Assembly: GCA_030295235.1 (NCBI GenBank)
Contig: AP026135.1
Span: forward strand, 868,001-932,000
DNA length: 64,000 nt
Reading direction: 5' to 3'
DNA from: Fistulifera solaris
Taxonomy: Eukaryota
Within the stretch, counting starts at the first letter, position 1. Every line of letters starts with the position of its first letter. Shown here piece by piece: positions 1,113 to 49,785 of this stretch. The position numbers and the translations under genes are program-made. Below the pieces are notes generated by a model. The model made no database searches. It saw only the letters and a list, made by a program, of their open reading frames with translations, and was not told the DNA's origin.

Positions 1113-2012
1113 ATGGCGGATTTATTGAAAGAAGCGGCCAAGGTTATCGCCGAACCACAGCAGCAGGAAGATCTGACAATCGTGTCAGATTCGATCATCC
1201 CTTCGGACCCTGACATGACGTGTCGACGATCGGAAGGACAAGTTTGCATTTGTGATGCATGCGAAGCGACGCGAACGAGAATTATACATCGCATGAACAA
1301 AAAGAAAAGAGCAAAGGCAGTCAATGACGTGAAAGATGAGACATCTCTCGCGGTAGCCCCCGACCCTGCCGTTCAGGGCGAATCTCGTCTTGCGAAGAAA
1401 CGAAAGGAACCCGAGGAAGAGAAGGATGATGAAGCAGAACGTCTGTTAAAGATGACAGATGCTTGTAGAACAATACTACGATGCATCGGAGAGGATGAAA
1501 CTAGAGAAGGTCTTCTGAAGACTCCTCAACGATGGGCCAAGGCATTGATGTGTATGTGTTCCGGATACGGCATGGAGGCACAGGACGTCACGAATAACGC
1601 TGTATTCTCCGAAAATCACGACGAAATGGTGGTTGTTCGTGATATTGATATACATTCGTTGTGTGAGCACCACATGTTGCCATTCACAGGACGTGTGTCC
1701 ATTGGTTATATTCCCAACGGAAAAATATTGGGACTCAGTAAGCTAGCGCGTATCGCGGAGTTGTACGCCCGCAGATTACAAGTTCAGGAACGCTTGACTC
1801 GCCAGATTGCGGATGCTATTGTAGAAACGGTAGAGCCCCTGGGAGTGGCTGTTGTCGTGGAATGCACACATTTCTGCATGGTCATGCGGGGTGTTCAAAA
1901 AGTCGGCGCCGTCACCACCACATCGTCGGTCCGGGGTTGCTTTGAAAACAACGCCAAAACACGCGCCGAATTTTTCAGTATCATACAAGGGAATCGCATG
2001 AAAATGTGCTGA
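1113..2012 (+). CDS. GCH1: GTP cyclohydrolase I with N-terminal extension
   Basis: Motifs [54 protein letters not shown] and HFCMVMRGV. Confidence 0.97.
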
Positions 2013-2382
2013 ATGACATATTTTGGCTTGTTAAAAGTCATTCATCGAAATCTACCTCTCAAATAGAAAGTAAAGTAACAACAACATAAGGCTGCATATT
2101 GTGTCTTTATTTAGGAGTGAGAAGTTGTACTCATTATTGCGAGCTAAGCGATGCAAGCTATCACAAAGAAGACCTGCATTTGCAGTGTGGCGAAATCAGT
2201 CAGTTAAAGCACAATTTTAATGTTTCACCACCCTCAGATGTACGAAGGTATAGCAGATAGGATGCTTACGATGCTCTTTTGATGTGCAACGAAGGGCGAC
2301 AAAATATCGGGCTATCCATATAGTTTACTTCATGTAATGATCAACATAAATAAGATTTGTGAGAACATGAAAAGCTATCAGT

Positions 2383-3691
2383 TTAGTCTGTTCCCAAGAG
2401 CGTTTCTTCGATTTCCAAAAATCGTTGATCATGCTCGGGATCTCGACCGCGCGCCCAGCCTTCATTGGTTAGTTTCTTTGTTACTTCTTCAAAGCAACAA
2501 ACTGTGAGATAATTGAAATTCCATGAGGATTCGATTTGACACTTTGATACTCACTACGCTTCAAGGGTTTTAGGTGCAATGGATCTTCACGTTCTAGTTT
2601 TCTCACTTGTTCTTTCACCGGATCTGTGACATGTTCCTTGACCGGTTCAATGATGTTCTTCTTAACGGGATCTGTGATATGCTCCTGAATGGGATCTTTG
2701 CGACCCAGTCCAAAAGGATGCTTAAAGAATCTCATCACAGCCGAATCTCGTTTCAGGGGAGAAGTTCCGTGATGACTCGTATCTTCGATGTCAAGCAGAA
2801 AAAAAAATTTAACCGTGAGGCCAAGCGAACGACAGAGTATATATAATAAAAGGGCCTTTTCAAAACTCACAATCATGACGATTCAATAGATCCACATTCA
2901 ACGGGTCATCGTGCTCAAGCTTTCTCAAGTCATCGTCAGAGGGGTGTTCAATACTTCTCTTGACAGGATCTATGATATTCCTTTTGGCAGGATCTGTTAT
3001 GTGCTCCTTAACAGGGTCACCGTGGCCAAATCCATATGGCACTTTAGAGGATCTTGATGTAGCTTCTTCTTCCATGGGGTGCATACCGTATTGAGCAGAA
3101 CCTAATAGCGAGAGAGGCAAGTTCAGATAGGTGGTTGAAACGTGAGTACTACAGCAATAGTCACTGATAAGGCCGTCGACCTTTACTTACTTCTGTGAAC
3201 GGATTTGAGATGTAGTGGATCCTCCTTCTCAAGCTTTTTGATCCCCTTCTTTACAGGTTCTTTGATGTGTTTCCGAAAGGGTTCCTGAATATGTTCTTTG
3301 ACGGGATCTTTATAACCCAAACCGAAAGGATGCTTCAAGAACTTGACCAAAGCAGATTCTTCAGTTGGTAATGACCCTTCTTTGGCGCGGCCTTTTCAAG
3401 CGAAAATCAAGAAAGGAATAGTTTCAAAGCCATTGTCAGATTGAAAAAGGGAATATCGGAGAAGCGCATGATTTCTTACTCACTTCGGTTCAGCGTTTGG
3501 AGGTACAAAGGATCGTTTCTTCCACTATACGGTTGGCGTTTCTGTAGGTCTGGGTTTGTGGGGTTGTGAATACCCAAACCAAAGGGGTGTTTCAAAAATC
3601 TCATGAGAGGTGACTCTTGCATTGGCAGCGAAGCTTCTTGCCGAGCACAAGCTCCAATAGCAAGCATTGGTATCAATTGAATCACACGCAT
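2383..3691 (-). CDS. Secreted modular repeat protein, five exons (3691-3484, 3391-3191, 3101-2871, 2782-2555, 2459-2383), ~314 aa, unknown family
   Basis: Signal-peptide-like start MRVIQLIPMLAIGACA. Four GT(G/A)AGT...AG introns of 92, 89, 88 and 95 nt, all phase 1, join into one uninterrupted frame. Exons 1-4 each carry an (F)xKHPFGLG / KVPYGFG ... DPL module. Confidence 0.85.
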
Positions 3692-4115: not shown

Positions 4116-5115
4116 CTAACGTGTCCACTGAGCAGCCTTGATAGGAGGAAAGGTTTCGACCGTAATGTCATCGTACGCAAATGTGACACAGGAAAGTCGA
4201 TAACTATCGGGATTTTCGCGCAGAGTGGAAGCTTCATCCATGGATTTTCGGTTGGTTCCTAAACTTCCTTTCGTAATATTCACAATGCAAGTTCCACAGA
4301 GCTGCTTGCCTTTACAGTTGGTCCATCGCGTCACGCTTTGGTAAACATTAATGCCATTATCGACCAACAGTTCCCGAACGTTTACTCCTGGTTTCGCTGT
4401 CAAAGTAACGACAGCTTCTTCTTGTGAGCCTTTGTTCTGGATCACCGTCACGGTGATTTGTTCGGATTCACCTTGGATTGAATTACCATTCGCACAGATC
4501 GCTTTCAATTCTTGTTTAGTACCACGAAAGAAAACGAAATCGATCTCGCGCACCGACTTGTCCAGTTCAACAAACGTATTCATGACCAAATCAAACGGAG
4601 CGCCGATCAAGGGAATGGGCACTCCTCCCACGGGCGTCAATTCACACAATTGATCTCCTTTTGCACTTCTCCCGAAAAGGCGGCGTCTCCGGCCGGATCC
4701 ATGTCTCGCACATACACGAATGAGAAACTGAGATCGGTGCCCCAATCAATGCCTAGAGTGAATCCGAACAGTAGAACCATTAATGAGAATATGTTTAAAT
4801 TCCTTCTCTATTCGATGCAAATGAGAATCGGATGCAGTTTTTTCACTTACCAGGAGCGCGACTGAGCCGCACCTTGTACAAACGTGGATCCAAGGAAAGA
4901 TCTATACCTTTGTCTGCATCATTGGCTTTACTGCTATCATTTTCGTCACTGGAGAGGTATACTCTTTTGCTAGCAAAATTGCGGAACGGCAATCCTCGTC
5001 GTTGAAGCGCGTGAAGAGGCACGATGGAAAACGACCAAACGTGATGAAGAAAGAACGCGACAACGAGAAAGGCGAGCTTTCTCTCTGCAGTTGACGATGA
5101 CGAGAAAGAAAGCAT
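4116..5115 (-). CDS. Plastid-targeted PDZ-like + 2Fe-2S ferredoxin-like protein (intron 4850-4753; one frameshift near 4660)
   Basis: Bipartite presequence (...HHVWSF). APG/IDWGTDLSFSFVYVRDMDPAGDA is a PDZ-like segment. Cys ligands NCKGKQLCGTC ... YRLSC. GTAAGT donor and CTAG acceptor. Confidence 0.8.
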
Positions 5116-10133: not shown

Positions 10134-10180
10134 GACTGTGTTTGGTTGTTTGGTGAATAGTCTTTGTTGTAGATAGAAGA

Positions 10181-10236
10181 GGAAGGAAGGAAGGAAGGAA
10201 GGAAGGAAGGAAGGAAGGAAGGAAGGAAGGAAGGAA
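10181..10236. repeat. (GGAA)14 microsatellite
   Basis: Perfect tetranucleotide run just upstream of the GT49 start. Confidence 0.95.
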
Positions 10237-11736: not shown

Positions 11737-15847
<4,111 letters not shown>

Positions 15848-24479: not shown

Positions 24480-25402
24480 CTTCTTGCCGAATTGAGTAAA
24501 CGCTGATCTTTCCAGTCAGTCAATCCGAATCTATGATATTATATTTTGGTTGCATTATTTATTATTTAGTCTAGGATGACAATTGATAATGGCTTACCAG
24601 GTAAAGTTGATGATCATTCGTTCCGCCATCCAATCAATCCATTGGTGGTACGACATCATCTGCCGCTCACCCTGCTCCGGCTCCCTCATGAGTCTATAAA
24701 ATAAGTCCGTTCGAGCAAGAGAGGAAAAAAGTAGATAGAATATTACAAGCAAAGTCACTTCAAAAGAGTAACAAGAGGGTGTTTCATCGCAAATGCAAGA
24801 TAAATCATATAGAGTCAATTATTTGCAAATAACAAACAAGAAACGAAATAACTCATGACTCAAAATCAGTCGTGGCAAAAGCTCGCCTTCATTTTGGGGT
24901 TATAGTAAATGAAATACTGGTACATGTACAATGGGCCTAAAAATACACGTTTGCTAACCTTACCAGTAACCTTATTGCCCTTCATGTCGATGAAACGCGC
25001 AACGCAGTCTTCAAGTTTTGCACAGTACTTGTAGTTCATCTTTTGCTTTTGATCTTGATGGAAAAGCGCGGTAGCTGCTGTGATTCGAATGAAGTTTTTG
25101 AAGGGAGACTTCCGTTAGGTCTCCAACCAGGGTGAACCTCTTCCGATAGCTCTCCCGTTAGGAGAGACGTTAACTGACTACATTCAACTTTACAGTAGAG
25201 TACGCGCCATTGGATGTGGTACTAATTACTTAAAGGCCTTCCATCCATCATTAGTTCTACTTAGGTCACGCACAATAACCGCACAATCGTTCGCGTTGTG
25301 CGTTTGTTCCGTTCCGACTGCCGACAAGATGATCAGAACGCTGCATTCCTTATTGTCATAGTTGCCCTTCCGTTCCTACTGTTGCTCTTTTACAACATTA
25401 AC

Positions 25403-27270
25403 ATGTCGATCATTGAAACGAAGGGCGGCGATCATTCGTCACGATTATGCAAAAATATGGGGCACTTCCTCCAACCGGTCCGTATGATTTTGAAAAGTTT
25501 CTCTATGACAAACCGATCCCTGAGGATGATCAGGAGCTTCTCCGCAGCATCGCTTTTGTGTAATGCGATCGAAAGCTCTTACGAGATGTCAGCAAGCACG
25601 GAGAAAGCCCTTGCTACGTGTGCACTTGCTGCAAAACGTTCTCACTTAAGTTCAAGGAAGAAAACGGCGAACTTCGATTGCTACGACCATCCTAGTACTA
25701 ACTTCAGGCACAGTTTGTTTTGCACTCCAACAAACGACCTCCCAAAGGACTGCCGCAGAAAATCAATGATAGTGCAGAACATTCCTGCTGTTCAAGACTT
25801 CTTCAAAACATGCTTCCAGGCACCAAACTTCGACAGTCATGCTACTCGCAAGAATCTCAACGCCGTCCTCAGGAAAGAGGGTTTCGACATCGAAGTTGGC
25901 CCGACAATGCATTCAAATCTCAAGAAACACTTCCGTGAGGTCTACCGAAAGGATTTGTTGATGTACAATGAGCTGTTGGCCCAGTATCTTCGGAAATATG
26001 TCGAGCTAAATCCAAATGCCTCCGTCAATTTAGAAACTGACCAGAACTCATGCTTTTTCGGTCAACTGTGTTCATTGAGAATGCCGCGCACTTCTTTAGA
26101 AATGCCTGCATTCCTGCAATCTTTTAGACGGAACACACATCCGTATACCCGAACACGATGGAATTGGAGTCCCGATCATAGGGGTCGATGGAAATGGAAG
26201 TAACATTCCACTTGGTTTTGGGTTGATTCCCTCGGAAAACAAGCAAGGGATGATATATATCCTTCTCATGATGTATCAAGCTGGGTTCAATTTCGAAGAG
26301 TTTCCAGTATTCACTGACCGAGGACACATTCTCGCCGCTGTCCGAGCGTTGGCAGAACATTATGGACTGGTTGTTTCCGTGAAGTATTGCTTGATTCATA
26401 TTCTTCAAACATTTACCATCTATTCAATATCAATCAACGATCGCTGAGAGGGCAGAGCGGTCGCTTGGTTTATGCGAGATGCAAAGCTCCAGATGTTAAC
26501 GCCTTCTTGGATGCTGCGAAGAAGCTTGTCAAAGCGCTTCCACAAATTGAAGAAAACGAAACTCTTAGTACCGGTGCGCTAATTGTTATCTATGTTCTTG
26601 GGACAATTCATCCTACTCATTGGACTGTGTTTGGAAATACACCGAGTCAACATGAATCTATGTGGGAGCCCCTATATTTTACCTATCTAGCTGAAGTGAA
26701 TGGCTTCACAGAGATAAGTGGAGACGTCGGCGAATGGAGGTGGTTGCTCAACGATCACGTGCCAGTTGGAAACAAGTTCCCTTTATATGGTTTCTGTTCA
26801 ACAAATCATGTCGAATCGGCCCAGCAGTGGCTTCTACATCATGAAGTGAGGACTAATACCCCTCCACTAGCCATTTCTAACTTTTTGATGGCGGCTGCCG
26901 AATCTCTTCGACAATTTCGAGATGAAATAACAACCAAATCTGCTAGGTTCCTCACCATATACTTTCGAAGCTTGCAAGATACAGGCAATGAAGATCTAGA
27001 TTTTGTAATAGAGGATGCTGAAGGATGCCCGATGGCAGTTTGAAATTCAAATTGTACGCTGAAAAGCACAAGAAGACGGAGTATGTTACTTATGAACCCA
27101 CGAGCACTCCGTCCCTGTACTGCTCCTGCAGTAGAACAGCGATGCGGGAAATCTACTGCGGCCACATCAACCTTGTTTCACGTGACAAGATCCTCAACTT
27201 GGCCCTCAATCCCACCCTCTGTGTTTTCGCAATTCTACGAAGAGTTTGGAAAAGTTCCGACAAGTGGTGA
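25403..27270 (+). pseudogene. MULE transposase + SWIM, disrupted
   Basis: Catalytic motifs are spread over at least four reading-frame fragments (25298-26203, 26223-26447, 26387-27043, 27025-27270). Confidence 0.85.
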
Positions 27271-29689
27271 TCGTCAGCTTCCTTACAGAGTTTCTTAACA
27301 ACTATCCGCTGACTTGACGTCCCGGGATTTGGGGATATCAAGCTTGCTTATCAATCAGAAAACATTTATCCATCACCAACTTACACTGACAAGCTTAACT
27401 CGGGGAACAGAATAATCAGTAATGGTGAACCGGGACCACGTAAGTCAAAGAAAAGAAGCAATCGGCGCTGGAATCAGCACGAATGACAAAGGAGTATGAG
27501 CCAAGTTCAAAGAACAAGCTCAGTCGAAATAACGATGCAATAGCAGAAGCGATTGCCGCCGATGGTCTGTTTGATTTTGGGACCAAACCAAAGGCGGAAC
27601 ACATGCAACAGCTAGAATCAACTCTTGGACCTTAAACGTAGAGACGGCAAGCCCTTACCTCGGCACTGCTTTCACTGCAGATCACCGAATCACACAATTC
27701 GACAGTGTCTGGACTACCTCAAAGATGATCGAAGGTACATGGATCCTGCATTACTTGAAACTGGCGCAATTCTGGTCAACCATTTCCCAACATGCGTCAT
27801 TGACATGGATGCAGGAATTACTTCTGAAGATTTGGACAACGATGATACCTCCGGAGGACATGGCCTTCACAATATTGACAAGATTGGCTTAGTAGAAGAC
27901 TCTGATGCAGCCAATGCCATTGTCCAGTCACGGATTTTAAAGCTTACTGGAGAAGACGCTGCAGAAATTCACGCTGAAGACGACAACGAAAATAACTATC
28001 TTCTGGATATGGACCTTGCTCCGTCAGGTAGTAACCGAGATATTGTAGTAATTATTCGTGACAAGGATTACACGGAAAGAAGAAGTCACGAACAAGAATT
28101 GACCATGGTTGATGATGTCGAGGTAGGCATCCATGACGATTCCCGTCTGAACAGTGCACACTCGGGTCATCTGTCGACAATTCTAGAGGATGAAGATGTG
28201 GAACCAAGCACCGCACATAATGCTTTTGCCTCAAGTCCCGCAACAACAGAATATTCAGTAAATGAAATGCCAACAACTAGAACAAAGAGGAGATCCAAAC
28301 AAGTAACGAATTTAAAAGCGCAGAAGGCAAGTCCATCTACCGCAAAGTCATCGATATTGAAGACAGCGACCGCATCCAGACCGAATTTGAAACCACCGCC
28401 GACCACAACAGCTTGTGCTTCCAGTCCAGCAACAACAGATTTTTCATTAGTCAAAATGGCAACGAGAAAGAGGAAACGGCCGAAACAGCCACCAAATCAA
28501 AAAGCTGAAGGAACAAGTCCCGCCACAACTGATTCGTCAATCTTTGAGAGGCCGACCATGAAGAGTCAAAATCTGAAGCCACCACCTGATATCAGAGCTC
28601 ATGCCTTGACTATCGAGTCTTCAATGAATGAGAATACAACACAAAAAGGAAAAGATCGAAACTGACAGCAAATTCCAGAGCCAAAGGCCCGACTCATGCC
28701 CGTAAAAGAAGTTGAAACCGCCACCGATTGCAGAAGCAAAAGCAGGAAGTCCCGCCACAGCAGTTTCTTCCATAGTTGAGATGCCAACTATGAAGAGGGG
28801 TAATCTGAGAGCACTGCCAAGATCTCATTCAAACAGTCCAACAACCGAAGTATCACGATTCCTGAAGATATGATTATAAAGATACCGAAGACAGAACCCA
28901 CTAATGCAAGTCCCGCCACGTCTGCTAGTGACGATTCATCACATGTATTTAAAAGGCGATTAGACATCCAAAAGAAGAATGCAAGTCCCGCCAAATCCGG
29001 TAATCTCAGTGACGATTCGTCGCATTTCCTGAAAATGCCGCTAGATCTGCGAAGAAAGAACTTGGCACAAAATGAAGCGCTCTCAAGTTCATTTTCAGTG
29101 GGTATTCCGAAAACCAGAAGAACTCGTAGAGCTATAACAAGTCCCGCTACTGCCACTAGTGGGACCTCATCACAATTCTTGAGAACACCCTTCGACCTGA
29201 GACGTAAGATTGTAGATCCCAGAAATGAAAATCAATTTTCATTACGTCGACAACAAGTAAGGCAAATTGGAGTAGCCCCTTTGCAACCCCCAGTCATTAC
29301 TGATGAACCATCAAAGATCGTATCCTATTTTTACGACACAGCTTATCCATTTGTGGGAACCATTGAGCAATTAAATTGTTTGGTTCAAGAACACGAGTTT
29401 GATATTCCAGAATCATTTCACGGAAAACGGAAACAAATGATTTAACGATGAAAAGAAGGGCTTCAACCCGAAAACGCAAGGGCGCAAACCAGCGAGGACT
29501 TGTGAGTGAGAACAATATTGCAATCCACGTGCGCTGAATACTCTTGCAGAGACAGCAAAAGGAAAGAAGTGGAATAGAATCATTTATCACTGTAGGGACA
29601 AGAAAGAATGGAAACGATCTGATTTACAACAAAGAAGATGCCAGGGGATCTCTTCGGTCACTCCTTTTGCAATCCAGTGCAAAGGGGCG

Positions 29690-30450
29690 CTGATAAAGGT
29701 CGCGAGTCGTCACGACCTGAAGAGGGAAAGAAGCATCATATCAAGGTGCTAGTGGTGCCACGGCATCCATAACCAGTGAATGCCTTGAAATTATGAACTC
29801 GCAATGTTATTTCAATGACGCGATTGTGAACAGTTTCCTTGAAAGCATAACAAGCAAGACCGTAACGGATGAGGGAGTTATTGCACACCCGTCGTATGTC
29901 ATGAGTAATCTGTGGGATTCCGCCAACCAAAATATTAAGAGAGAGGGTAGACTGCAGCTTAGTTCAGCGTTTGTGGCATTGAATTCTATGACAAAATCGA
30001 ACAATTTGGGCATTCATTTATTCCCTATGTGCAAGGAGAGGCACTGGTGGTTGATGGTGGTTGATGCCGATAATCGAGTTATTTATTCGCTCGACTCCCT
30101 CGAAGATCCGGACGATCACTACTCTAATGCTGTCTGGCTTTCAGGTTTATTTAAATTCGCGTGCGGTGAGGCAGCAATTAGAATGCGCGTCAACAAGCGA
30201 GCAGCAGGAATCAACATTACCCGATTTAGCTCCGTGGGAATACCAAGAAATGCGTCTTCCCAATAAACTATTGCAACATGATGGCCATAGTTGCGGACCA
30301 TATGTATGTTTTTATGCGGCGACAATTCTGAAACATGGTCGACGTGCCCTCAATGAGAGGACATGGTTCCTTGACTCTATTTCGGAGATTGGAGTCGGAG
30401 ATGATCTCCGACCTTTTGTATTTGATGTTATGTTTCAATTGGCTGAATGA
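29690..30450 (+). pseudogene. Ulp1/SENP (C48) protease domain within the MULE, frameshifted
   Basis: YFNDAIVNSF, FPMCKERHWWLMVVD, IYSLDSL, then a frame change to LQHDGHSCGPYVCFYA (His, Asp, oxyanion Gln and Cys). Confidence 0.85.
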
Positions 30451-30599
30451 CACGTATAGAGTAATGTGTGATATTAATCAACCAAGTCTAGTTTGAAACT
30501 GAAATTGTGGAGACCTGGATTTGTAATTAGTATTTACTACGTCAGTTAAGTTCTTCGAGCTATCAGCCTTGAATCGGTGGATGAGGTCACAAGAATAGG

Positions 30600-32424
30600 C
30601 TGAAATGGATTTTCTTTCATTGGCAAGAGTCGCGCTCGGCTCTTTGCCATCAGGACAGTCCAGACGTAGGCGGTTTTCTTTATTGTCCACAATTGGAGCC
30701 GTCGAGCGCATGCAGGATCTGTACCAAATGTTGCAAGATGATCCACGCATCGATAGTTCATCGTTTCGTTGTTTGTTACAGGCGTACAGTCGGTTTCAAC
30801 CGAATCATTGGCGACTGGAAGCGTGTTTGGATTGATATGGAACGATTTGTCAGTGTATTCTTATTAGCATCTGGGTGATTCAATGGCCAATCACTCCGGA
30901 CTGCATCTTCATCAGGGCGTTGCATGATGTTAGCTTTATCGAGCGAACGACGTTGCAATGAATAGACATTCTGGCAATCCGTTAATGATGGAGAATGGAA
31001 CCGACGATCATCAATGGGCGCGATGATCTCTACTGGATGAACGAAGGTTGAATCGATAATGACAGCTTTTAACGTCTCTCCTACGACGGGAGATGGACGA
31101 TATCCGGAAAAGCTACATACACACTATTATGAGCCATTTGCGAAGACCTAAACGGAATCTCATACGCATTTAATCCATTAAGCTTGGAATTGGCAATCAC
31201 ATGGAAGTGCGAAGATGGTATCTGTAGCGCAAGACATTTCTGTTCAGGAAATCATGGATCACTTGCTAGAAGAAAAGCGCGCATGATCCCAATCTAGAGC
31301 CAGGGCTTGCACATTACACGTCGTTAATTGGGTCACACGGCTGGAGTAGACGAGATTCCGAATCACAAAAACGTGTTTTCAAGGCCATCAACGATTTAGT
31401 AAAATCAGGTTTAACACTTGATATGCAGGCGTATCAAGCATGCTTTAACGGTTTGACCAGAACCCAGTGCACAGATGGTGCTACGGTTGCGCAACAATTA
31501 CTGAGCCAAAGCATCAAACAAGGCTTACAACCGGATGCAAGATGCTTTCAGGCCGTACTAAGGGCATGGGCTGAAAGCAAGGATCCGCAGGCATTCAATA
31601 ACTGCGAAAAATTGATCTTGGAACTGGAATCATCCTATCTAGCATCTGGGAAGCAATCTTCGTTTCGCCCAAATTCACATTGTTATGTAAGCATGATCAT
31701 GGCGACTATGTATACGGCTGGAAACTGCGGACCGACTGCTGAATCCGTTTTAAATAAAATGCATAGTGCAGCGAAACAGAATATGGCAGATGAACCCGAC
31801 AAAGCCGTTTACTCTTCCGTTATGAAAGCTTACGCTAACGATGGGTCGGCTACGGACGTTGAAAGGATATACGAAAGGATGAAGAAAGCCTTCGCCGATG
31901 GAAATTACAAAGCCGCTCCAGATAATAGAAGTTGTACGATCCTATTGCATGCCTGGGCCAAAAGTGAAGACCCAAATAAGGCATTTCGGACGAGGCAACT
32001 GTTGGTTGACATGTTTAAGGCATACGAAAGTGGGAACGTGGACATGATGCCCAATATCCAATGTTACAACGCAACTCTAAATTCCTGTGCATTCTCTGAT
32101 TCGAAAAACGAGGAACAGAACACGGAGATTGTTCGTCTTGCCGTCGAAACCATCACTGATATGGAAGAGTATCACGGGGAGATTACTGAATATGCTTTTT
32201 GTCAAATATTTCATATCCTCGGCCGTTTTGTCGCTGATAAGACTGACCGACTGGACCTTACGGCCACTTTTTCCAGAAATGCTGTCAAGCTGGTTACGTG
32301 AGCGAACACGTCATGCGAGTTATTAAATCTCGCATTCCAGAGTTTTACAGCAAGCTTCCAGGAGATAACATAGCGAGGCTTCCGTCGCAGTGGACGCGCC
32401 GAGTGGTCTCGCAGTGATCCTGAT
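30600..32424 (+). pseudogene. Pentatricopeptide-repeat (PPR) protein with a degenerate 5' half
   Basis: ~35-aa repeats PDARCFQAVLRAWA, PNSHCYVSMI, PDKAVYSSVMKAYA, PDNRSCTILLHAWAKS and PNIQCYNATLNSCA in 31423-32301. PPR-like fragments with stops lie upstream. The C-terminus is in another frame (..CQAGYV...LPSQWTRRV). Confidence 0.75.
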
Positions 32425-37759: not shown

Positions 37760-38261
37760 AAGCAACACTAAACTATTTTCTTTCGCCCCAAGGTGATTTC
37801 GATGTTTTACCGGGACTGCATTTCAGTCATGGGTCGAAAAACGAGCCAGACTGCTGCCATATCTTTGTTTCATTCGACACGCTTGTTAGGCTTCACTTGT
37901 TTACTATGATGAAACTACAAGTTGTCTACCTTGAAATGCATTTGCAATGTATGTGACGATCATGAACGTCGAAATTTTCTTGGAAACCATTGTAACCCGT
38001 TTGGAAACTTAAGCAACACTAAACTATTTTCTTTCGCCCCAAGGTGATTTCGATGTTTTACCGGGACTGCATTTCAGTCATGGGTCGAAAAACGAGCCAG
38101 ACTGCTGCCATATCTTTGTTTCATTCGACACGCTTGTTAGGCTTCACTTGTTTACTATGATGAAACTACAAGTTGTCTACCTTGAAATGCATTTGCAATG
38201 TATGTGACGATCATGAACGTCGAAATTTTCTTGGAAACCATTGTAACCCGTTTGGAAACTT
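37760..38261. repeat. Tandem duplication, 2 x 251 bp, belonging to the satellite-like family
   Basis: AAGCAACACTAAAC...TTGGAAACTT at 37760 and again at 38011. Contains the core GACTGCATTTCAGTCATG; a third, diverged core follows at ~38279. Confidence 0.92.
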
Positions 38262-48968: not shown

Positions 48969-49173
48969 TGTATGTTGCACGTAAATGATCAATGACAATC
49001 AGTACGCAGTAATATGTAATATAGATTAACTCTTCTTGTCGGAAAAGTCGATGATGGTTATGTTGAAGTGCGTCCGAAAGGAGTGTACAATTTCCGTTTG
49101 GTGTCCTCAATACAATCTCTAGTAAGGTTATAGATAACGATTGTACCCAAGATCTTGCCGAGGAGCGAGGAGT

Positions 49174-49785
49174 CATGATGTTTTCCGAGCCCGACATCTA
49201 TTCAATCTTCGTTCCTTTGCAAGATTGATAAGCAGTACTTGGTTATAACACGATGCGATCAACATCAGTAGCAGCTGTAATGCACGTCTTGGTATTTACG
49301 AAGAAAATACTTGTGGAATTTCGTTGTTTGAAATCACTATAGACCCAAGTGTCAGCGACGTTTCACCACGACTGCGTTTCAGTCATGAATCATGATGTTT
49401 TCCGAGCCCGACATCTATTCAATCTTCGTTCCTTTGCAAGATTGATAAGCAGTACTTGGTTATAACACGATGCGATCAACATCAGTAGCAGCTGTAATGC
49501 ACGTCTTGGTATTTACGAAGAAAATACTTGTGGAATTTCGTTGTTTGAAATCACTATAGACCCAAGTGTCAGCGACGTTTCACCACGACTGCGTTTCAGT
49601 CATGAATCATGATGTTTTCCGAGCCCGACATCTATTCAATCTTCGTTCCTTTGCAAGATTGATAAGCAGTACTTGTTTATAACACGATGCGATCAACATC
49701 AGTAGCAGCTGTAATGCACGTCTTGGTATTTGCGAAGAAAATACTTGTGGAATTTCGTTGTTTGAAATCACTATGGACCCAAGTG
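49174..49785. repeat. Tandem array of ~2.8 x 217 bp; more diverged ~210-bp units continue to ~50260
   Basis: CATGATGTTTTCCGAGCCCGAC starts at 49174, 49391 and 49608 (period 217). Diverged core CCACGACTGCATTTCAGTCATG at ~50030. TACCATTCAT...AATCCTT.CGAAAT is repeated at ~49911 and ~50119. Confidence 0.95.

What the first reader, a model, noticed from the sequence alone, without database searches (positions are those of the whole stretch)
2383..3691. Hidden five-exon gene for a secreted protein built from one repeat module per exon
Seen in sequence: the ORF track shows only short fragments, but splicing four canonical 88-95 nt phase-1 introns gives a clean 314-aa protein. It has a signal peptide, then four homologous modules: RFLKHPFGLG..DPLYLQ; KFLKHPFGLGYKDPVKEHIQEPFRKHIKEPVKKGIKKLEKEDPLHLK; KVPYGFGHGDPVKEHITDPAKRNIIDPVKR..RKLEHDDPL; RFFKHPFGLGRKDPIQEHITDPVKKNIIEPVKEHVTDPVKEQVRKLEREDPLHLK. 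A short acidic tail follows. Internal exons are 201, 231 and 228 nt, so any can be skipped in frame. Modules 2-4 contain a variable number of 8-residue [DE]PVK[EK]xIx units. Established knowledge: diatom biosilica precursors (silaffins, silacidins) are cleaved at RXL motifs and carry modified lysines. Inference: RFL/RKL and dibasic KR/KK sites suggest a polyprotein precursor releasing His/Lys-rich peptides (cell wall, adhesion, metal binding or signalling), built by exon duplication and tunable by alternative splicing. I do not recognise the family.
Basis: partly seen in the sequence, partly recalled or inferred. Interest (0 to 1): 0.8.

Follow-up and report, generated by a model that had tools for sequence, protein, structure and literature searches.

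The report
Diatom secreted four-module repeat protein gene
A real, spliced gene of a Fistulifera diatom encodes a floppy, probably secreted protein built by exon duplication from four related modules; it has no described relatives and lacks the silica-peptide hallmarks tested, and nothing yet shows that it is cut into peptides.

Summary
The gene is real. RNA-type contigs join three of four introns. Intron 4 is 68 nt, not 95, so the protein has 323 aa, not 314. The copy on the other subgenome equals the hypothetical protein FisN_25Hh163 of Fistulifera solaris; the copies are 86% identical, dN/dS 0.12. Relatives are few and unnamed; one spliced relative has extra modules and the same tail. Each module has a variable linker, a conserved K-x-P-x-G-x-G head, 0-4 amphipathic 8-residue units and a DPL..R end. 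No Pfam, PDB or Atlas family fits, and predicted folds are low-confidence. The polyprotein reading is weak: RXL, KxxK and dibasic counts are at chance, Ser is 5%, no pentalysine cluster, no kexin P-domain or PAM found. Only the first RFL lies where diatom propeptides are cut. No exon-skip joint was seen. Best reading: a secreted multivalent binding or scaffold protein (0.45); a module-releasing precursor is the main rival (0.3). The scan holds no look-alike; it noted unrelated RXL polyproteins elsewhere in this genome.

The parts
3484..3691 (-). Exon 1 (208 nt): signal peptide (aa 1-16, inferred), short acidic pro-region, RFL at aa 31-33, module 1 (head, no 8-mers, DPL..R end)
   Evidence: contigs of X2-X4 cover part of it
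3392..3483 (-). Intron 1, 92 nt, GT..AG, phase 1
   Evidence: joint in X2 and X3
3191..3391 (-). Exon 2 (201 nt): module 2, three 8-mers, Lys-rich (three close KxxK), most conserved exon (dN 0.039)
3102..3190 (-). Intron 2, 89 nt, GT..AG, phase 1; not covered by RNA contigs
   Evidence: same position in the C15 gene model
2871..3101 (-). Exon 3 (231 nt): module 3, divergent head, three 8-mers plus a degenerate acidic one, net charge -6
2783..2870 (-). Intron 3, 88 nt, GT..AG, phase 1
   Evidence: joint in X2, X3, X4
2555..2782 (-). Exon 4 (228 nt): module 4, four 8-mers, ends in KR
2487..2554 (-).
   Evidence: joint in an X2 contig of the C15 copy; C15 model; P0037
2383..2486 (-). Exon 5 (104 nt): conserved 34-aa tail and stop
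   Evidence: 21 of 34 identical to P0037; only match elsewhere in G000 is the C15 copy

Best explanation
A Fistulifera-lineage gene, grown by tandem duplication of one phase-1 exon, makes a largely unfolded protein that enters the ER (inferred). The signal peptide and probably a 15-residue pro-piece ending in RFL are removed (inferred from position). The rest works as beads on a string outside the cell: each bead is a conserved aromatic/Gly head (K-H-P-F-G-L-G type), a Pro-kinked amphipathic rod of 8-residue units whose number tunes length, and a conserved DPL..R cap, joined by fast-changing linkers. The likeliest job is multivalent binding or scaffolding at the cell surface (organic coat, mucilage or a membrane), not silica precipitation of the silaffin type. 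Shown: gene structure, transcription of both subgenome copies, purifying selection, modular anatomy. Inferred: secretion, propeptide cut, disorder, site and function.
For: Spliced contigs for both copies. dN/dS 0.12 between copies; 7 of 36 syntenic ORFs are as low or lower. Substitutions fall in linkers (24 of 96) more than in heads, arrays and ends (12 of 177), Fisher p 5e-5 (classes partly drawn from alignments holding these copies). K, P, G, G, D, P, L, R invariant in 17 of 17 rows. Hydrophobic moment of all 3 arrays peaks at 90 degrees, two turns per unit. Unit number varies within the gene (0, 3, 3+1, 4) and between relatives: P0010 has one fewer in module 4; P0037 has 8 units in a row behind one head and two modules without a DPL end, which suits length-variable rods in one chain. 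No compact fold: pTM 0.15 and 0.16, Atlas model pTM 0.18. No membrane anchor seen (best hydropathy window is the N-terminus). N-terminal RXL marks the propeptide cut in most biosilica proteins (PMC5647440, passages).
Against: No localisation, proteomic or condition-specific expression data. Low confidence of folds from 2 and 17 sequences is weak evidence of disorder. Conserved cores with variable linkers fit a precursor equally well. Every module ends in an invariant Arg and module 4 in KR. A non-aromatic +1 residue with mixed charges is also typical of periplastid targeting (PMC12136025, passages). dS is unusually high (0.61); with the neighbours' median dS the ratio would be 0.23.
Confidence: 0.45

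Rival explanations
1. Polyprotein precursor: cuts at RFL-type heads, at R-x-L near module ends, or after the terminal Arg release four different His/Lys peptides for the wall, mucilage or metal binding.
For: RFL in 6 of 6 exon-1 copies; R-x-L with variable x (K, Q, H) in 16 of 16 type-3/4 rows, REL in two further P0037 modules; terminal Arg invariant; variable linkers; many subtilase-family matches in the genome (40).
Against: Motif counts at chance. Sites missing from module 2 (KKL), from module 1's end and from heads of modules 3 and 4 (RSS, KSS, GFF). A cut at the second site would leave the well-conserved DPL..R cap (3 of 40 changed) in the spacer. No kexin/furin P-domain candidate in G000 (not proof of absence).
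Confidence: 0.3
2. A lumenal or periplastid protein (ER, vacuole, periplastid compartment) whose amphipathic units shield membranes or proteins, in the manner of stress-protective disordered proteins.
For: Arg or Gly at +1 and mixed charges after the signal in 6 of 6 copies fit the periplastid pattern described in PMC12136025. Amphipathic arrays. A sub-threshold Perilipin_2 hit for P0037 (E 0.005, 16.7 vs cut-off 30.1 bits).
Against: No HDEL/KDEL-type end (motif recalled); the Pfam hit is below cut-off and absent for P0001; the RFL motif suits the secretory route.
Confidence: 0.12
3. A silaffin/cingulin-like silica-forming component of the frustule.
For: Signal peptide, N-terminal RXL, Lys 10.7%, three KxxK within 10 residues in module 2 of both copies; 25 of 92 silica-associated proteins lack known targeting motifs (bioRxiv 2021.09.18.460806, section 14).
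Against: Ser 4.6-5.3%; 0 pentalysine clusters and 0 of 13 enriched motifs in 3 of 3 proteins; close KxxK pairs arise in 25% of shuffles and are absent from P0037.
Confidence: 0.1
4. Precursor of amidated FGL-amide peptides that mimic arthropod allatostatin A (family motif recalled, not from a call), acting on grazers or as a signal.
For: G-R-K or G-R-R follows the head in module 4 of most relatives, like an amidation signal.
Against: Signal missing in modules 1 and 2 of the window copy. Both Cu-monooxygenase pairs found in G000 sit behind a DOMON domain in the copy examined, so are not PHM-type. PMC6529398 (passages) states that diatoms lack PAM.
Confidence: 0.02

Closest known systems
FisN_25Hh163 (GAX18179.1), hypothetical protein of Fistulifera solaris
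   Same: Identical to the spliced C15 copy; 278 of 323 identical to the window copy.
   Different: It is the other subgenome copy. No function; its identifiers were in 0 papers.
Silaffin precursor Sil1p, silacidins, cingulins (PMC4557024: passages and section 7 part 1; PMC9650480: passages)
   Same: Signal peptide, RXL soon after it, repeats, basic overall.
   Different: Repeats here are 40-77 aa, divergent, one per exon, Ser-poor, Pro-punctuated and amphipathic; RXL does not close each repeat; no Ser/Gly KxxK clusters.
Frustule-associated protein G7408 of F. solaris (Nemoto et al. 2014; paper not held; seen only as passages and a citation in PMC4712521)
   Same: Same species. I recall an ER signal and an XGXG domain in its abstract (unverified); the heads here contain x-G-x-G.
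   Different: Probably another gene: g7407 is an 'apospory-associated C' epimerase (PMC5935921 supplement 4); 0 of 7 aldose-epimerase matches lie on C15/C16; those on C21/C22 are flanked by Gly/Lys ORFs with up to 40-57 x-G-x-G. Assumes gene numbers follow position.
Frustulins (PMC4712521, passages)
   Same: Secreted, repeat-built diatom surface proteins.
   Different: They rest on acidic Cys-rich domains; this mature protein has no Cys.
Generic Pro-punctuated 8-mer repeat proteins of bacteria, insects and others
   Same: 21 of 31 profile hits match through such repeats.
   Different: None of the 21 has the head motif; read as convergence.

Membership tests
Silaffin/silacidin/cingulin-type precursors | ER signal peptide | tested here: inconclusive
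   Hydrophobic N-terminus ending A-x-A in 6 of 6 copies; SignalP not available
Silaffin/silacidin/cingulin-type precursors | RXL shortly after the signal peptide | tested here: met
   RFL at +14 to +18 in 6 of 6 exon-1 copies, inside a block conserved as a whole
Silaffin/silacidin/cingulin-type precursors | RXL at the C-terminus of each repeat | tested here: not met
   2 of 4 modules have R-x-L, and it lies 13-15 residues before the module end
Silaffin/silacidin/cingulin-type precursors | Rich in Ser/hydroxy amino acids | tested here: not met
   Ser 4.6-5.3%, Ser+Thr 8.3-9.3% in 3 of 3 proteins
Silaffin/silacidin/cingulin-type precursors | Pentalysine cluster or Ser/Gly KxxK clusters | tested here: not met
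   0 clusters, 0 of 13 enriched motifs; weak two-KxxK rule met in 2 of 3 proteins but also in 25% of shuffles
Silaffin/silacidin/cingulin-type precursors | Modified Lys/Ser and tight association with silica | not testable with these tools
   needs mass spectrometry and localisation
Frustulins | Acidic Cys-rich domains | tested here: not met
   0 Cys in the mature protein; no Pfam hit over cut-off
Kex2-processed repeat precursors (recalled) | KR at each repeat boundary and a kexin in the genome | tested here: not met
   KR closes 1 of 4 modules; 0 P_proprotein candidates in G000
Amidated neuropeptide-type precursors | G-K/R-K/R after each peptide and a PAM enzyme | tested here: not met
   1 of 4 window modules; only DOMON-type monooxygenases found
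Plastid stromal proteins | Aromatic +1 residue, no acidic residues in the first 15 transit positions | tested here: not met
   +1 is R or G, 2-3 acidic residues in 6 of 6

The most novel reading that the evidence does not exclude
A new class of diatom peptide precursor in which each exon encodes one distinct 40-60 aa secreted peptide (conserved aromatic/Gly head, tunable amphipathic rod, DPL..R cap), released by RXL or single-Arg cuts and acting as a signal or membrane-active agent; its raised synonymous divergence would hint at long-kept recognition alleles.
Probability: 0.12. Interest if true: 0.7.

Novelty: new variant of a known kind. Interest (0 to 1): 0.36.

Why it matters
Diatom walls and coats are built from lineage-specific repeat proteins that alignments cannot link. 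This one is unusual in having one module per exon, invariant head and cap motifs and amphipathic units, and it sits in a transformable species, so whether diatom RXL or Arg sites release non-silaffin peptides can be tested directly. Without such tests it is an uncharacterised hypothetical protein of narrow distribution.

Tried and rejected
Run search: no holder is on record as RNA; X1 runs through all introns like DNA, X2-X4 show joints. Missing cover of intron 2 is not used as evidence. Pfam: 0 families for 5 of 5 exon peptides; only sub-cut-off hits for P0001 and P0037. PDB sequences: best E 0.17. Atlas: no usable feature hit in 2 of 2 searches, structure TM by query at most 0.28. Fold searches not run because both models were low-confidence. 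Self-assembly of 3 copies of module 4: no answer, score 0.01, not used either way. Metagenome scan: 1 locus (L009), a 10-residue chance match in bacterial-looking DNA. Viral contigs: 16 pattern matches, 0 relatives. Paralogues in G000: only the C15 copy. Origin of introns from the signal-peptide region: 0 of 10 pairs similar beyond shuffles. In-frame, stop-free intron 2 of the C15 copy (78 nt): the window's intron is 89 nt and variant P0009 leaves the frame, so taken as chance. Identity with G7408: rejected on neighbourhood. Print searches: identifiers 0 papers, motifs 0 papers; FisN identifiers absent from 11 supplements of PMC5935921, which use other gene numbers.

Full report
Gene structure. 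The minus strand of 2383-3691 holds five exons (208, 201, 231, 228, 104 nt) split by four GT..AG phase-1 introns. Four public runs were laid; their RNA status is a guess. X1 is continuous through the introns. X2-X4 join intron 1 (2 runs) and intron 3 (3 runs). One X2 contig joins 2486/2557; all 8 variant letters listed for X2/X3 in exon 4 and the two letters at the joint match the copy on contig C15, so both copies are transcribed and intron 4 ends at 2487 (68 nt here, 67 in C15). Intron 2 has no RNA cover. None of the 3 joints within the gene skips an exon.

Second copy and selection. G000 has one other copy, syntenic, on C15. Spliced, it is identical to P0001, FisN_25Hh163 of Fistulifera solaris, a 323-aa hypothetical protein; the species is described as allopolyploid (PMC5935921, passages). 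The copies share 278 of 323 residues; dN 0.074, dS 0.61, ratio 0.12. Of 52 window ORFs, 45 had a C15 match and 36 were kept (ratio under 0.5, at least 120 codons); median dS 0.32, maximum 0.54, median ratio 0.21. The gene is thus constrained, and its dS is the highest in the neighbourhood, which I cannot explain.

Relatives. The profile search of 1.84 billion representatives gave 31 hits; 10 carry the head motif, 21 match only by generic Pro-punctuated repeats. Three word-indexed searches added P0001, P0045-P0047 and nothing from another named species; sensitivity for such repeats is limited. Most relatives are single-exon frames from unnamed records, at 53-94% identity to window modules, many ending at the same donor position. 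P0037, a spliced 349-aa fragment, has extra modules and units and a tail 21 of 34 identical; its TadA label from the source is not borne out by Pfam. Some rows are near-identical variants, so the independent genotypes number about six to eight by my reading.

Anatomy. After a 16-residue hydrophobic leader, each exon gives a variable linker, a head (R/K)-F-x-K-H-P-F-G-L-G, a run of 8-residue units D/E-P-V-K-E/K-H/N-I/V-x (47 units tabulated from 7 sequences, Pro fixed by the pattern), and a DPL..R cap; P0037's last cap reads DLL. The units have their hydrophobic moment at 90 degrees. Modules within the gene are only about 32-49% alike, while each is conserved between copies. AlphaFold gives short helices and no compact fold. 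No Pfam, PDB or Atlas family fits.

Cleavage. RXL, KxxK and dibasic motifs are not enriched. The first RFL sits where propeptides of biosilica proteins are cut (PMC5647440, passages, which also says processing at RXL remains to be proven). A second R-x-L precedes the cap in modules 3 and 4 in 16 of 16 rows, but not in modules 1 and 2, and its Leu continues the helix face. In Sil1p RXL closes each repeat (PMC4557024, section 7 part 1); here it does not. No kexin P-domain candidate and no PHM-type enzyme was found. Silica-targeting marks from bioRxiv 2021.09.18.460806 (passages and section 14) and PMC9650480 (passages) are not met, apart from the weak two-KxxK rule.

Known proteins. The one described F. 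solaris frustule protein that might have matched, G7408, is probably a Gly/Lys repeat gene on C21/C22; its paper is not held and my note of its XGXG domain is recall. Identifiers and motifs returned 0 papers. Other papers appeared only in search listings or gave nothing relevant in passages. Earlier scan notes list several clearer RXL polyproteins elsewhere in this genome (unchecked); none resembles this sequence.

Verdict. A real, constrained, lineage-restricted gene with an unusual exon-per-module design. It looks like a diatom secreted repeat protein but fails membership of the silaffin type. Most likely it is a multivalent surface binder or scaffold with one propeptide cut (0.45); release of module peptides is open (0.3). 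Interest 0.36.

Noticed in passing
window 24,900-30,700: About 5.8 kb with no match in the C15 stretch, holding broken frames with sub-cut-off MULE transposase (E 3e-4) and Ulp1 protease (E 9e-4) hits and a Cys/His knuckle-like motif: probably a subgenome-specific Mutator-like element. No terminal inverted repeats found.
   Followed up: partly
window 2383-3691 vs L007 4714-5991: dS 0.61 is above all 36 syntenic ORFs kept (median 0.32, max 0.54); exon 2 alone has dS 1.2 and dN 0.039. Unexplained.
   Followed up: partly
window 1113-2096 and 4116-4745: Neighbours are GTP cyclohydrolase I (+, poly-A loose end at 2096 in X4) and a 2Fe-2S protein (-); no functional link seen.
   Followed up: partly
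L032 3098-3745 and 6192-6866; L033 2946-3428 and 6164-6892 (G000 C21/C22): Gly/Lys(/Ser) repeat frames flank an aldose-epimerase-family gene; the likely place of the described frustule protein G7408.
   Followed up: partly
window 49173-49785 and 37760-38261: Near-perfect tandem copies of 217 nt (2.8x) and 251 nt (2x); the 217-nt unit resembles a stretch at L007 2915-3127, so a dispersed repeat or an assembly artefact.
   Followed up: no
window 12528-12647 and 10180-10236: Perfect (CAA)40 and (AGGA)14 microsatellites.
   Followed up: no
G000: 40 subtilase-family matches, several in local clusters (C25/C26, C32/C33, C46): candidates for processing secreted precursors.
   Followed up: no
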